A stretch of 64,000 bases of DNA from Chrysomallon squamiferum. Its lineage: Eukaryota > Animalia > Mollusca. The notes below the pieces were generated by a model. The model was given only the letters and a program-made list of their open reading frames with translations, was not told the DNA's origin and did no database searches. The DNA is taken from the NCBI GenBank assembly GCA_012295275.1, contig CM022665.1, positions 5,394,001 to 5,458,000 on the forward strand, read 5' to 3'. Shown one piece after another: positions 132 to 48,725 of this stretch (within the stretch, counting starts at the first letter, position 1; every line of letters begins with the position of its first letter). Position numbers and translations under genes: made by a program.

Positions 132-1262
132 TTACTCCTTGTTGGCGGGTTCTTCCAGAGATTCATCATCTGACAATTAAAAAAACAGCATTAATAAACA
201 GATGGACAGACGAACTGACAGTATGAAGCATACAGCAGTTCAGTTTTACGTTTATTAATATTAATATAATACATTGTTGGTTGGTTTTTTACCCTTATAA
301 TCACGTTATTATTATTATCATTATAGTAGTTGTTGTTGTTATTGTTATTGTTACCGTTACCACTATTACTACTACTACTACTACTAATAATAATAATAAT
401 AATATGCTTTTTATCTGTAATTAGTGGATATATATAATTTAAGTCTCGTTTACATTTTCAGTGAAAAGCTGAATGTTTCCGATATACATATTTATTATTA
501 AATAAACTTCATATACATATTCATTACTAAATATATATAATTTACATATTCATTACTAAAGATATCTGATTAACGTATACATTACTAAATATATGTAATT
601 TACATATTCATTACTAGAGATATCTGATTTACATATTCATCACTTACCTTCCTCCTCCATAGCGTCCATCAAGTCTTCAATGTCTCGCTCGCTGAGGAAT
701 TTCTCGAGATCTTTCTCGTCCAGCGTATCATCATCATCATCTTGAGTTTCATCTGCAACATCTCTGCCTGTTAGAAATGAAAGAAAGAAAATTAATCAAA
801 GAGACTGTGTCAGTCTTATGAACGTCGATAGATAATATTTGTTAGAAACATTTGTTTTAAAGTAGTCTTGTCATTATAACATTAGTACTTTACAATATAA
901 TAATACATTTATAGACTTATCTAAATATATCAGTTATATCTGCGTCAAATTAGCAAATTATAAATTTATTATCACTTTACTGTATGTCTATGTCTTATTT
1001 TTGACATACGGGCTGTCAAAAATTTTCATCACAGTGATTCATACGGCTTTAAACTAGCATTTGTATGGGGTGGACCTTAGCAAAAGGATATGTTAAAATA
1101 ACAACCTGGGAAAGTCGGGACAATTCCAACAGGTCCAGGAATCAAACGACGAATAGGAATTCTGGGAAACCTAAATCGTCTGAACCATCGTCTTCGTCCC
1201 CAAGCGTCAGACTGAGTTACAACAAGAGCCGCAAACAACAAGAAAACCAATAAGAGCTTCAT
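132..1262 (-). CDS. Secreted cationic AMP-like precursor A1 (3 coding exons)
   Basis: Exons 1262-1106, 767-648 and 169-132, with phase-1 GT-AG introns. Product: MKLLLVFLLFAALVVTQSDA / WGRRRWFRRFRFPRIPIRRLIPGPVGIVPTFP-G-R / DVADETQDDDDDTLDEKDLEKFLSERDIEDLMDAMEEEDDESLEEPANKE*. Hydrophobic signal peptide, Arg/Pro core and acidic tail. Confidence 0.88.
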
Positions 1263-2939
1263 CTGTTTGAATAAACACGATAATTAGTAAAAAATAATAA
1301 GAGAGAGAGAAGAGAAGAGAAGAGAGAAGAGAAGAGAAGAGAAGAAAAAGAGAGAGAGAGAGAGAGAGAGAGAGAGAGAGAGAGAGAGAGAGAGAGAGAG
1401 AGAGAGAGAGAGAGAGAGAGAGAGAGAGAGAGAGATTAAACAAGCAAAACAGAAGAAAACAAAATCGGTGTTAATAAATAAAACAAAGGCCTGACTTTCA
1501 GTACAACATTTATGATTTATTTTAAATTTACAAGATATTTTTTTACCGACTAGTTACATATATCGAAACTGTACAAGCTTAACATTAAGAACAGAAAAAG
1601 AAAAAGTTAGACAAAAAGCTAAGCAAAAGATCAGCCTTAACTTTCATCATTTTTTTTTTCCTTTTGACTATTATACACATATGAATAATAACTTTTGCGT
1701 ACAATTCTAGATATATGATTGCTCTTCAAATGTTCGAAATTTTTTTTTAATTACATATATATCAATAATCAGTTCAAAAAAAAAAAAAAAAAAAAAAAAA
1801 AATTATATATATATATATGATTTACAAGTATAAGATTAAAACCAATATTTCTAAACAAAGCACCAACCTTTGAGTTCAGTATCAGAATTATGATTAACTT
1901 TACATTTTCGAGGTCTTTTTAAGCATTCATAGTGCTGCTCATTACACCTCACAGAGTTGCCTGATTTAATCAGAAAATTATTTTTCTGCACTTTGAAGGT
2001 GTGGTATTTTCATTCGCTGAAATTACTTTTGGCCATCTGAGCTACGAACAGAAATTATTAACGACAATGAGTTGAGAGATTTTATCAGATCGTTGTTTTG
2101 TTTAGTTTGAAAGTGTCAAATCCGTGAAGCGAGTGGGGAGAGCGAAAGACACTGTACACCACGTGCGCGGTGACGTGGCCACTCTGATTACGAAAGGGTA
2201 ACATATATGACGGTCTTCAAATGGTTGATAACTGTTTTATTGTATTGTCATAATTTATTACGAGAATAAAATAATAAAACAGTAAGTCGGAATAAAAATA
2301 ATATCGTTAAACCACAGACTATAAATCTAAATCTGAATATTTTAATTTATTTATTTATTTATTTATTTTATTTTTTTTATTATTATTGGATTTAGTATTG
2401 GTGTTATTCTCCTTGTCGTTTTATCAGCATCAACAGTCAAGATGTGAAATATTTAACTCTATTACTGTTTGTCTTTAAAACTAACAAAACATATTTTATG
2501 TTTTATGTTTTATCTTCTGTAATATATTTATTTGTTCATGAAACCATAATCATTATACCTTATTCGTTATTATCAAAAAAGATGTCATTAAATTTTAACT
2601 CTCTCTGTGTGTATGTGTATCTCTCTCTCTCTCTAATAACAATAATAATTTATATTTGATCTTGATTTGACCTAGCTACAGTCCTTTGAAATATTTTCTA
2701 TATTCATTTAACATGTTACACTTGTAAAACAGCTTGTTTTCCAGTAAAAGTGACAAATTGCCTGCGGATTATCTGTGCCGTGTGTATGAAGAGAGACAGA
2801 TGGTGTGAAAGAGAGAGAGAATTTTGCGAATTCCGATTTGACACATTCAAATGTAATTTCAAATTTATTTTTAATTTTCTATACAGTGGTCTATTATTGA
2901 TTTAAATGTGAAAGAGTGAAAGAGATAGTGAGAGACAGA

Positions 2940-3327
2940 ACAACACAGAGAGAGAGAGAGAGAGAGAGAGAGAGAGAGAGAGAGAGAGAGAGAGAGAGAG
3001 AGAAGAGGCTGATAAAAAGACATACATTTTTTTTTACCGAAGAGCGACAGACAATAAAACGAATGAACAAGAGAAACAGAAACACACAGAGAGAGAGAGA
3101 GAGAGAGAGAGAGAGAGAGAGAGAGAGAGAGAGAGAGAGAGAGAGAGAGAGAAAAGAGGCTGATAAAAAGACATACAATTTTTTTTACCGAAGAGCGACA
3201 GACAATAAAAGGAATGAAAAGAGAAATGAACAAGAGAAACAGAAACACACAGAGAGAGAGAGAGAGAGAGAGAGAGAGAGAGAGAGAGAGAGAGAGAGAG
3301 AGAGAGAGAGAGAGAGAGAGAGAGAGA
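2940..3327. repeat. (GA)n tracts within a ~175-bp tandem duplication
   Basis: agaggctgataaaaagacatac...gaacaagagaaacagaaacacacag is repeated at ~3003-3090 and ~3154-3252 between GA tracts. Confidence 0.85.
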
Positions 3328-45875: not shown

Positions 45876-47771
45876 GATTGCTGGAATAAACGTGAGTAAC
45901 AGAGAAACCAGATGGTAATCTTCGCACAGTTGTCTTGTAGCCTCAAGATAACAGAATTTATGTGTCAGGCTAAAATAGTGATTAATGTAATGTAATAAGA
46001 AATATATACGTTAAAAATTGTTTTTGATCCGAAAACATTTTGATAATCATTTCCATCCTGTTTGTCGTACGATATCATTTTCATTATAATTCACATGTTT
46101 TACGAGATCAGTAATATTTTGTATTTGTTTTTGATTTTAAAAATGTATGTATGTATGTATTTATGAATGTATGTATGTATGATATATATATATATGTATG
46201 TATATATGCATGTACGTAAGTAATTATGTGTGTATGTATATATTTATGTATGTATGTTATGTATATATGTATGTATGTATGTATGTACGTGTGTATGTAT
46301 TTATATGTATGTATGTATGATATGTATATATGTATGTATATATGCATGTACGTAAGTAATTATGTGTGTATGTATATATTTATGTATGTATGTTATGTAT
46401 ATATGTATGTACATATGTATGTATCTATATATTTATGTATGTTTTCATAGTAACTGTTATTTGGTGTCAAGCAATAAAATTACATAGGAAATTCTCTAAC
46501 GGAACCACTTCGATTCCTCTTACCGATTATATGGATCTTTTATATCGACTTTATCGAAGATATGAAAATATACATAACTCTTTGATAATCTGAAAAAAGT
46601 ATACAGTTTAATGGGAACAGAGAGAATTTGATCCCCCGGCTCACTGCACCAAAGGCTACGTACCTTAAATAAGAGTAATTATTTCTGAGAGTTATATCAG
46701 CATGCAAAAATCATTTCTACAGTAATAAACGGCAAAAATGGTTTAATAAATAAGAGTAAATAATGCCTAGGGAAATAGCGAAAAAATAATAAGCTTTGCT
46801 CAAGCAGATGTTTTCGCCTGATCCGGACTTGACGCTTAGGTTGAAAACATATAACACAATTTCATCTTCATGGTTTAATGTTTAGAGCTGAGTGATATCA
46901 AGAGAGAGAGAGAGCGTCAATACAAATAATTAATTACTATAGACACACCCAGAAAAATCAAATTAATTTAGCACCAATATAATTTTGCCAGACCCGGACT
47001 TAACAGATGAAAAAAAAAAAAAAAAAAAACGTTTTAATTTTTTATGCAACACTTTTTAGATATAAATACAGGAATAAGAGAGACCAAAACTGAGAACGAG
47101 AAAAGAAAAAAATCATACAGATAAACCATTGCATCTAAAGGTAGAATTACTTTTTGTTATTATCATCTTCATTGTTATTATTATTATTATTAGTAGTAGT
47201 AGTAGTAGTATATATTATATATATTAGGAATAGTAATAGGAATAGTGTAGTAGTAATGGTAGTGGTGGTAGAAACAGTAATGGTAGTAGTCGTCACAGTA
47301 ACAATAGAAGAAATAATACAGGAGTAGGGTTAGCAGGACTAGTAGTTGTGGTGGTGGTAGTAGTAATAGTAATTGTGATAATGACAAGAGGAAGAATATT
47401 AGCAAGAATAGTAATTATTATTATTATTATTATTATTATAATTATTATACTGTCATTATTATCATTATCATCATAGTTATCATCACTGTAATCCATTGTC
47501 ATGTTAATTATCTCTCTCTCTCTCTCTCTCTCTCTGTACGTTTCTATGTAATAGAGGGTCAGTCTAAATAAATGCACATGTAGCAGCAATAATATGTATC
47601 AATTCTGTTGAAATTAACCTTACTAATACCACATCTACTCATTTCCTTTGCTACTTATTTTACAACGCATATATTTTTAATACACCACATTCGCTAAAAA
47701 GAATTGATTTATAATATCATAAGACAGTTCTCAATAAATAACTGTATAGGAATGTTCCCTTGTATTTACAG

Positions 47772-48725
47772 ATGAGACTGGTTATTGTTCTTGCTTTGTT
47801 TTGCTTTCTGGCTCTACAAGAATCGTTCGGCTGGAGAAAGAAATTTCGCCTTTCATTCCGTCGTCCATTTTTTTATCATCACCGTATTCGTGTTCCTCTA
47901 TATTTTGTTAGGTATTATATTTAACCCACCATGCCTCTTTGTAGGATGCGTGTTCGATTTACAGAGATATGGGCGTGTAAGAAGTCAGGATATGCAGGGG
48001 CGTAGGAAAACAGCGCTTATGACAAGCACTGAAACTGAGATTTAGATTTGCAGTTAAAAATCCTTGGTGTTAGCTGACATTATATAGGAAATTATAACAT
48101 TTAATACAGTACTGTTTTATATTATCTAATGCAAATTTTAAATAAGATAGTTAAACATTATCTAGATCTTTATTTCATAAGATACATAGATTCAAAGAGA
48201 CACACACATACATACATGCACTCTTGCAGACATCCATACATACATACGAGTTATTGTTATATCATTATTTACCAACGATTCAGGGAAAAGAGCTGACGGT
48301 CAAAATGAAAACAGATTCGAGATTGAGTCAGAACTATCAAAATTCTTCAGTGAAAGAGAAGTTCAAGATTTGATGGAAACTCTCGATAAAGAAAGTAAGT
48401 GAGATAATATTTTTATCAGTAGCTGGAACAAAAATATATTTCAGTGCAGAATGTTTTTTTTTATTTGGTTTCTGCTTTTTCTACTTCTTCTTCTTCTTGT
48501 TACTACTACTACTACTACTAGAATTGTTGTTGTCGTATTTTTTTTATTATTATTGTTAATATTGTTGTTGTAGTTTCTTCATTTCTACTTTCGTTTTTAA
48601 ATTAAACGTGTTGTAAATTAATTTGAGACGAATTTTATGTTGTATCATCTTAAAAACAAAATAAAAAAAACAATCAAAAAACTTTCTTTTGTTTTTTAGA
48701 TGAAGAATTTATTTCTCGTGATTAA
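47772..48725 (+). CDS. AMP-like precursor F (absent from the ORF track; one-base phase discrepancy)
   Basis: cag|ATG at 47772: MRLVIVLALFCFLALQESFG / WRKKFRLSFRRPFFYHHRIRVPLYF.. to donor ag|gtatt at 47911. Exon 48284-48394 (G)KRADGQNENRFEIESELSKFFSEREVQDLMETLDKE. Exon 48700-48725 NEEFISRD*. TATA-like motif near 47060, 5'UTR donor at 47140, 3'UTR exon from ~49275. The donor is phase 2 but the acceptor needs phase 1. Confidence 0.72.

What the first reader, a model, noticed from the sequence alone, without database searches (positions are those of the whole stretch)
132..48725. Cluster of 13 paralogous secreted peptide precursors: a candidate new multigene AMP family
Seen: 8 apparently intact loci (A1, A2, C1, C3, D1, E1, E2, E3) and 5 disrupted ones (B, C2, D2, D3, F). 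They share CAG|ATG placement, a phase-1 intron after the core, a symmetric phase 1-1 acidic exon of 99-123 nt and a tiny last coding exon. The cores are unrelated chemotypes: Arg/Trp/Pro (A, D), GPIGM repeats (C), His-containing helix (E), Arg/Phe/His (F) and short near-neutral (B). Established: signal + hypervariable cationic core + conserved anionic tail is the myticalin-type layout of mussels. Inference: one conserved cassette delivers many peptide classes, as the cathelin domain does for cathelicidins. Such short, repeat-embedded genes are easily missed by annotation.
Basis: partly seen in the sequence, partly recalled or inferred. Interest (0 to 1): 0.88.

Follow-up and report, generated by a model that had tools for sequence, protein, structure and literature searches.

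The report
Snail defence peptides with EF-hand tails
A snail genome carries a tandem cluster of 13 related genes for predicted secreted precursors that would release short, positively charged, likely antimicrobial peptides from an acidic tail that appears to derive from a calcium-binding EF-hand pair; a matching uncharacterised gene set exists in a deep-sea vent snail.

Summary
Three corrections. (1) F is probably intact: 4 of 4 read sets lack one base and restore the frame. (2) The cores are not all unrelated: A, C and D share a Gly-Pro-(Ile/Val/Pro)-Gly motif that also occurs in the relatives. (3) The acidic tail resembles a shortened EF-hand pair, consensus-like in D1 and decayed in A, C and E. 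The only full-length relatives found are 11 proteins on one Gigantopelta aegis contig, named uncharacterised or oncomodulin-like; the neighbouring RCC1 gene also matches that snail best. The layout is myticalin-like, but the dibasic site, the three-exon gene and the mussel range are not met, and no myticalin was hit. Best reading (0.6): a gastropod family of amidated cationic host-defence peptides whose EF-hand-derived tail masks them until cleavage. Expression, processing, killing, calcium binding and folding of the tail are not shown. Positive selection was not demonstrated. No description found in the papers searched. Interest 0.62.

The parts
132..1262 (-). A1, intact: coding exons 1106-1262 (signal + Arg/Pro/Trp core, +9), 648-767 (acidic, decayed EF loops), 132-169
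4560..6977 (+). A2, intact: exons 4560-4716 (core +10), 5180-5299, 6937-6977; inverted paralog of A1
12024..12958 (-). B, disrupted in the window: duplicated signal start (ATG at 12958 and 12910), frameshift, stop at 12844; acidic exon 12346-12444; last exon from 12058. Most divergent member
   Evidence: missed by the HMM
16293..16866 (-). C1, open: exons 16674-16866 (Gly-Pro-Ile-Gly-Met repeats, core +2) and 16293-16415; last exon not resolved
19075..20793 (+). D1, intact: exons 19075-19270 (Arg/Pro/Trp core, +13), 20180-20296, 20753-20793; the member whose two EF-hand-like loops best fit the consensus (7 of 7 and 6 of 7 positions)
22001..23025 (-). E1, intact: exons 22875-23025 (His-containing, predicted amphipathic core, +6), 22366-22488, 22001-22017
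27324..27935 (-). C2, disrupted in the window: first coding exon 27720-27935 is 216 nt (phase 0) with small indels; acidic exon 27324-27446 intact
30152..31498 (+). D2, disrupted: stop at 30236, deletion of the core end and donor; acidic exon 30874-30990; last exon 31458-31498, duplicated within 31856-32011
33032..34071 (-). E2, intact: exons 33921-34071, 33372-33494, 33032-33048
37252..37802 (-). C3, open: exons 37631-37802 (core +3) and 37252-37374; Ala-Arg instead of Gly-Arg; last exon not resolved
39868..41049 (+). D3, disrupted: start and part of the signal deleted, stop at 40556 in acidic exon 40446-40562; last exon 41009-41049
42055..43174 (-). E3, intact: exons 43024-43174, 42406-42528, 42055-42071
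47772..48725 (+). F: exons 47772-47911, 48284-48394, 48700-48725; out of frame in the window, in frame (core +8, Gly-Lys-Arg) in 4 of 4 read sets
15155..46106 (.). Three head-to-tail units of about 11 kb (about 15.2-25.5, 26.1-36.0 and 36.1-46.1 kb), each with a C, D and E locus; most blocks 85-96% identical
   Evidence: self-blastn

Best explanation
The window holds a tandem family of 13 gene copies for predicted secreted precursors in which a short cationic core would likely be cut from an acidic, apparently EF-hand-derived tail, amidated and released as a likely antimicrobial host-defence peptide. Steps: (1) shown in the DNA: a signal+core exon, a phase-1 intron whose junction creates the Gly of a Gly-Arg site, and a symmetric acidic exon. 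(2) Inferred from established secretory-pathway biochemistry: signal removal, cleavage after Arg, then carboxypeptidase and PAM amidation. (3) Inferred: the tail (net -9 to -22) neutralises the core (+6 to +13 in A, D, E, F) during storage. (4) Inferred from sequence resemblance: the tail came from a two-loop EF-hand domain; D1 and most G. aegis members may still bind Ca2+, while A, C and E have decayed to plain acidic spacers. (5) Inferred from composition: Arg/Pro/Trp cores would act like proline-rich AMPs, E and F like membrane-active peptides. The family turns over by duplication and loss.
For: Anatomy. Charges and sites: Gly-Arg at the junction in 6 of 8 intact window loci and 7 of 10 G. 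aegis proteins, Gly-Lys-Arg in F. Signal and tail are far more conserved than the core in A1/A2 (16 of 94 differences against 2 of 180, p 1e-6) and C1/C3 (20 of 107 against 9 of 180, p 4e-4; also above intron flanks, 24 of 398, p 1.5e-4). The relative G. aegis has 11 paralogs on one contig with the same layout. EF-hand signal: 9 of 11 G. aegis proteins match Pfam EF-hand_7 at E <= 0.01; P0001 passes the EF-hand_1 cut-off, 26.4 against 25.4; the tail profile's 8 of 8 PDB hits at E <= 0.01 are EF-hand proteins. The same layout, with tandem clustering and pseudogenes, holds for myticalins, of which 4 of 7 synthetic peptides were strongly antibacterial, 2 moderate and 1 inactive (PMC5577615; PMC12294457). 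Predicted peptide C-termini are not conserved, unlike receptor ligands.
Against: No expression, peptide or activity data. Cleavage at a single Arg is a prediction. C1 and C3 cores are nearly neutral (+2, +3), C3 lacks the Gly, and B's core is not cationic. No positive selection shown: A1/A2 pN 0.16 < pS 0.25; C1/C3 pN 0.32 against pS 0.26 on a gapped, repeat-rich alignment; E2/E3 8 non-synonymous to 0 synonymous, p 0.34; A and E cores diverge no faster than nearby introns. Only 1 of 6 window acidic exons tested (D1) gives any Pfam EF-hand match, below cut-off (E 0.013). A window-only profile gives 7 artificial alphaRep-type proteins and 3 EF-hand proteins among 10 weak PDB hits. AlphaFold2 models are weak (pLDDT 53 and 65), lack the first helix of EF-hand 1, and Foldseek finds nothing at E <= 0.001 (TM <= 0.31). 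Strong conservation of EF loops in G. aegis could mean the tail is the working product.
Confidence: 0.6

Rival explanations
1. They are secreted calcium-binding proteins of mucus, shell or sclerite matrix. The EF-hand pair is the working part and the cationic Pro/Arg segment anchors it or is a leader.
For: EF loop 1 fits all 7 scored consensus positions in 8 of 10 G. aegis proteins; one is annotated oncomodulin-like. EF-hand domains are common in the hard-part proteomes of these snails (PMC11871041, passages). Secreted EF-hand proteins with signal peptides exist (Orpin, 10.1101/2020.05.22.110411, abstract).
Against: In the window the loops have decayed in A, C, E while the Gly-Arg site and cationic core persist. 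A Gly-basic site separates core and tail. Family motifs and the name were not found in 4 text supplements of PMC11871041, one PDF being unreadable; those files may list identifiers only.
Confidence: 0.14
2. They are fast-evolving secreted signalling or reproductive peptides (pheromones, gamete or seminal factors) rather than antimicrobials.
For: Secreted, amidatable, multi-copy and variable, which also fits such peptides (own knowledge). No expression data exclude it.
Against: Cores are rich in Arg, Pro and Trp with net charge up to +13, the composition of proline-rich AMPs and myticalins A/D.
Confidence: 0.12
3. They are neuropeptide precursors of the Helix type that combine peptides with an EF-hand region (pleurin/PRXamide-like; the name HCS2 is recalled).
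For: A gastropod precedent exists: PMID 9622259, title seen in two reference lists, described as NmU/PRXamide- and pleurin-like in PMC7749107 (passages).
Against: Pleurin precursors give three 14-15-residue peptides ending Pro-Arg-X-amide. Here there is one core of about 20-50 residues, none of 13 predicted C-termini ends in Pro-Arg-X, and no C-terminal position is shared by more than 5 of 13. Tandem expansion with pseudogenes is unusual for neuropeptide genes (own knowledge).
Confidence: 0.06
4. On origin, compatible with the antimicrobial reading: these are remote homologs of mussel myticalins, and the myticalin tail is a fully decayed version of the same domain.
For: Shared intron immediately before the ATG, one exon for signal plus core, a phase-1 intron near the cleavage site, Gly-directed amidation and clustering.
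Against: No myticalin or bivalve hit in 5 hits among 1.84 billion representatives or 15 hits of the profile search. Myticalins have a dibasic site in nearly all members, with the intron after it, and three exons; they were not found outside Mytiloida by BLAST or HMM. Here the intron splits the Gly before a mostly single Arg and there are more exons.
Confidence: 0.12

Closest known systems
Myticalins and modiocalins (Mytilus, Modiolus; PMC5577615, PMC12294457)
   Same: Signal + variable cationic Arg/Pro/Trp core + anionic C-terminal piece; intron just before the ATG; phase-1 intron; Gly amidation signal; tandem cluster with pseudogenes.
   Different: Mostly single Arg rather than Lys-Arg; intron splits the junction Gly; an extra coding exon; EF-hand-like tail (the 2017 paper never mentions EF-hand or calcium); gastropod rather than mussel; no sequence hit.
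Uncharacterised G. aegis RefSeq set (e.g. XP_041352107.1 LOC121370741, XP_041352113.1 'oncomodulin-like', LOC121370732-748, LOC121369885)
   Same: Direct homologs: same signal type, shared Pro-Gly-Pro-Ile-Gly core motif (C3 against P0017 46% over 68 columns), Gly-Arg-Asp junction, tails 27-62% identical to P0001.
   Different: More uniform tails with better EF loops; no function assigned; not on the same contig as the G. aegis RCC1 found.
Cathelicidins (cathelin pro-domain with PR-39/bactenecin-type cores; recalled, and named as the closest mature peptides of myticalin A)
   Same: One conserved folded-domain-derived cassette carrying diverse cationic peptides, including Pro/Arg-rich ones.
   Different: Cathelin is N-terminal and cystatin-like (own knowledge); here the cassette is C-terminal and EF-hand-like. 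No homology tested or implied.
Helix lucorum neuropeptide/EF-hand precursor (PMID 9622259; pleurin/PRXamide type)
   Same: Gastropod secreted precursor that joins cleavable peptides to an EF-hand motif (title only seen).
   Different: Several short PRXamide peptides with a conserved C-terminus, expressed in neurons; not matched here.
Two-EF-hand lobes (CaBP1/calmodulin C-lobe, oncomodulin, MCFD2, lanmodulin)
   Same: Two 12-residue acidic loops with helices between; weak sequence hits (best E 2e-4 to 5e-3).
   Different: About 8 residues shorter between the loops than CaBP1, first helix truncated, fused behind a cationic peptide; fold not confirmed.

Membership tests
Myticalin/modiocalin | Tripartite precursor: signal, cationic core, anionic C-terminal extension | tested here: met
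   C cores only +2/+3
Myticalin/modiocalin | Intron directly before the ATG; signal and core on one exon; next intron phase 1 | tested here: met
   definition. The upstream non-coding exon is inferred from donor-like sites
Myticalin/modiocalin | Dibasic Lys-Arg/Arg-Arg site in nearly all members, encoded on the core exon | tested here: not met
   Dibasic in 1 of 9 window loci (F, in reads) and 3 of 10 G. aegis proteins; the Arg lies on the acidic exon
Myticalin/modiocalin | Three exons, the last holding the rest of the tail and the 3' UTR | tested here: not met
   Tail is split over two exons by a further phase-1 intron; no transcript to confirm
Myticalin/modiocalin | Detectable sequence similarity to myticalin signal or tail | tested here: inconclusive
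   No hit, but I could not confirm that myticalins were in the candidate sets and had no myticalin sequence to align (figures not held; part 1 of 2 of the supplement showed none)
Myticalin/modiocalin | Restricted to Mytiloida | tested here: not met
   RCC1 next door matches G. aegis at 66.6% and Mytilus californianus at 54.6%; named homologs are all G. aegis
Linear cationic antimicrobial peptide (functional class) | Processed peptide exists and kills or inhibits microbes | not testable with these tools
   needs peptidomics and assays
EF-hand pair | Two 12-residue loops with acidic or oxygen ligands and a terminal Glu | tested here: met
   D1 7 of 7 and 6 of 7 scored positions; 8 of 10 G. aegis loop 1 complete; decayed in A, C, E (consensus positions from own knowledge); Pfam 9 of 11 at E <= 0.01
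EF-hand pair | Paired helix-loop-helix fold | tested here: inconclusive
   AlphaFold2 pLDDT 65, three helices, no entering helix; Foldseek 0 matches at E <= 0.001, all 10 weak rows EF-hand proteins
EF-hand pair | Binds Ca2+ | not testable with these tools
   needs ITC, CD or NMR
Pleurin/PRXamide neuropeptide precursor | Several short peptides with a conserved Pro-Arg-X-amide C-terminus | tested here: not met
   one core per precursor; 0 of 13 predicted C-termini end in Pro-Arg-X (definition)

The most novel reading that the evidence does not exclude
Vent snails of the Gigantopelta group captured a calcium-binding EF-hand pair as a reusable C-terminal pro-domain that holds diverse cationic defence peptides inactive in a Ca2+-dependent way and releases them at epithelia or in the symbiont-bearing gland, giving a cathelicidin-like system built from a different fold and a candidate tool for policing chemosynthetic symbionts.
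Probability: 0.17. Interest if true: 0.87.

Novelty: new variant of a known kind. Interest (0 to 1): 0.62.

Why it matters
Cysteine-free antimicrobial peptides are rare in the mollusc literature; myticalins are called one of very few examples (PMC12294457 abstract). A gastropod family of 20 or more peptides in two species would be a ready panel for synthesis. The tail offers a visible series from consensus EF-hand loops (G. aegis, D1) to plain acidic spacer (A, E), which would make testable how the anionic pro-pieces of defence peptides arise. If the host group is the chemosymbiotic peltospirids, the family is a concrete candidate for host control of bacteria; the G. aegis hologenome paper does not use the word 'antimicrobial' in its main text. 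It also shows that 'oncomodulin-like' annotations can hide peptide precursors, and that a pseudogene call in such repeats can be an assembly error.

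Tried and rejected
No whole genome is held, so the family size outside the window is unknown. Sequencing-run search on 15830-23800: no RNA holder listed; this says nothing on expression. First word-based protein search with the window's acidic exons (73-2000 aa): 0 of 6239 candidates scored; the exhaustive HMM search then found relatives, so this was a sensitivity miss. 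P0005 (Acinetobacter repeat protein, E 6e-4) rejected as an acidic-repeat match. Metagenome scan: 3 loci, all unrelated EF-hand or acidic ORFs without the cassette. Tree of 19 signal+tail rows (P0003, P0019 and five ENA fragments left out; B, C2, D2, D3, E2 left out): backbone unresolved; one window clade neither shown nor rejected, p-AU 0.54. NF-kB-like motif scan: 4 sites, one just upstream of F; no pattern across promoters and no shuffle control, so not used. Positive selection: not significant (the D1/D3 codon test crashed on a coordinate slip and was not rerun). ESM Atlas with P0001: best hit 0.83, an unnamed 56-member mollusc cluster, a lead only; a second query did not complete. The complex prediction of core with tail and Ca2+ was not available and the VIA fold search was busy throughout, so neither gives any evidence. 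Run X10 (organism B) gave only 10 short partial matches. Literature: nine searches found no description of this family; exact motifs and LOC numbers gave only irrelevant papers; supplements of PMC11871041 (4 files, 1 unreadable) and PMC7895826 (10 files) had no hit. Subscription journals and bioRxiv supplements were not searchable. Three look-ups of earlier scan findings were empty.

Full report
Observation. The window is AT-rich (21-34% GC per 2 kb) and full of microsatellites; no whole genome is held. I read all 64 kb. A scan for AG|ATG followed by a hydrophobic stretch gave 13 starts at 12 loci, B having two; D3 has lost its start. tblastn with the A2 acidic exon found 12 copies, and B's was found by inspection. 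In the 8 intact loci the first coding exon is phase 1 and the acidic exon is symmetric with AG/GT ends; across all 13 it is 99-123 nt. Last coding exons of 17-41 nt were placed for all but C1-3. C, D and E sit in a unit of about 11 kb present three times; A1 and A2 are an inverted pair. As a chance test, an HMM built from ten G. aegis tails alone scores 12 of 13 loci at 18-48 bits, while 20 locally shuffled windows reach at most 10.6.

Independent DNA. Seven runs of one organism in three studies hold 35-48% of the words of 15830-23800; one could be the window's own source. Laid on F, four runs each give one contig of about 800-850 bases that lacks a base at 47902/47903. That makes the exon phase 1, with an open 91-codon frame, a +8 core and Gly-Lys-Arg. 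F is therefore probably intact and the window has an error or a rare allele there. Two hints point to more copies: many extra contigs with other flanks align to F's acidic exon, and single contigs over D and E exons are 4-9 times deeper than the F contig of the same run. Contig depth is not a copy number, so this is a hint only.

Relatives. The acidic-exon profile against 1.84 billion representatives gave 5 hits: three G. aegis proteins named uncharacterised, one unnamed ENA exon fragment and one bacterial repeat protein. A second profile gave 15 hits among 4566 candidates: 11 G. aegis proteins, all on one 120.6 Mb contig with mostly adjacent locus numbers, and 4 ENA fragments. Ten of the 11 have the same layout, three with extra N-terminal residues; P0003 lacks a clear signal. 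Of 16 fetched RCC1 proteins, G. aegis best matches the RCC1-like gene downstream of the cluster (66.6% over 407 residues; next Patella 62.2%, Mytilus 54.6%). No abalone or other neomphalid was among them. The host is thus a gastropod, likely near the Peltospiridae (lineage), but not G. aegis itself; the species is not determined. That RCC1 lies on another G. aegis contig, so synteny is not shown. Several G. aegis models have isoforms, which in RefSeq usually reflects transcript support (own knowledge); that is indirect and concerns the relative.

Cores. Net charge is +9, +10 (A), +13 (D1), +6 (E), +8 (F), but only +2 and +3 for C; tails run from -9 to -22. A, C and D share GP[IVPLF]G motifs with 8 of 10 G. 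aegis cores, and C3 aligns with P0017 at 46% over 68 columns; A2 and D1 gave only signal-region matches in pairwise BLAST. Cores differ more than signal and tail in A1/A2 and C1/C3, and more than flanking introns in C1/C3 only; D and E duplicates are not hypervariable, and no dN/dS test is significant. The near-identity of the A1/A2 acidic exon and the intron before it (1 of 120, 1 of 100) suggests gene conversion as well as selection (inference).

Tail. Nine of 11 G. aegis proteins match Pfam EF-hand models at E <= 0.01, one above the curated cut-off. The 60 best PDB sequence hits shown for P0001 (of 154 at E <= 1; best 3e-4) and all 8 hits of the tail profile at E <= 0.01 are EF-hand proteins. 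Loop 1 fits all seven scored consensus positions in D1 and in 8 of 10 G. aegis proteins; loop 2 fits six in D1 and 7 of 10; A, C and E have lost positions, E most. Against this: only D1 among six window exons gives a Pfam EF match, below cut-off; the window-only profile's PDB hits are mostly artificial proteins; the inter-loop segment is about 8 residues shorter than in CaBP1 and the first helix is truncated; AlphaFold2 is unsure (pLDDT 53 and 65) and Foldseek finds nothing significant. EF-hand ancestry is likely; a folded, calcium-binding domain is not shown.

Mechanism. Shown: gene anatomy, charge complementarity, and a Gly-Arg created at the exon junction in 6 of 8 intact loci. Inferred: secretion, cleavage after Arg, amidation, masking of the core by the tail, antimicrobial action. 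I put this at 0.6. Rivals are a calcium-binding matrix protein (0.14), reproductive or other signalling peptides (0.12) and a neuropeptide precursor of the Helix EF-hand type (0.06), which fails on the unconserved C-termini. No expression data bear on any of them.

Comparison. It is built like a myticalin, down to the intron before the ATG (PMC5577615: parts 1-4 of 9 of the text and passages read; PMC12294457: abstract, parts 1-2 of 4 of Results and part 1 of 2 of the supplement). It fails the dibasic-site, three-exon and taxon tests and no myticalin was hit, so I do not file it there; remote homology stays open (0.12) because I had no myticalin sequence to align. Other papers were seen as passages (PMC11871041, PMC7895826, PMC7142155, PMC11359391, PMC8398477, PMC7749107), as an abstract (10.1101/2020.05.22.110411) or as a title only (PMID 9622259). 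Nine full-text searches found no description of the family; the library lacks most subscription journals.

Verdict. A real family, apparently undescribed and present in at least two snails. The precursor type is known; an EF-hand-derived C-terminal pro-piece on such peptides was not found in my searches. New variant of a known kind, interest 0.62, held down by the lack of any expression or activity evidence.

Noticed in passing
window 24404-24520 (-), copies at about 35264-35380 and 45130-45250: Each tandem unit also has an exon-like open stretch after a good acceptor, with a Cys-x7-Cys-x4-Cys-Cys motif (colipase/prokineticin-like, recalled); no GT donor after the motif (GC in all three copies), no Pfam match, no start exon found.
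   Followed up: partly
window 54909-61140 (+): RCC1 (regulator of chromosome condensation)-like gene, at least 8 coding exons, used for taxon placement.
   Followed up: yes
window 48284-48421: Many extra contigs with different upstream flanks align to F's acidic exon in all four runs, so further F-like paralogs probably lie outside the window.
   Followed up: partly
window 42839-42942: Partial duplicate of the end of E3's core exon inside the following intron (88% over 104 bases).
   Followed up: no
window 559-868 and 5079-5388: A1 and A2 share a 310-base block at 96% around the acidic exon while cores and other flanks differ by 12-29%; looks like gene conversion between inverted copies.
   Followed up: partly
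window 47749-47758: An NF-kB-like palindrome just upstream of F's start; only 4 such sites in the window, no control run.
   Followed up: no
proteins P0004, P0006-P0008, P0014-P0016: Unnamed ENA gene calls that are single acidic exons of the same family read into the intron, from contigs of 25 kb to 1.1 Mb: probably a third host species.
   Followed up: partly
window 62991-63803: AT-rich 25-base minisatellite, about 31 copies, after the last RCC1 exon found.
   Followed up: no
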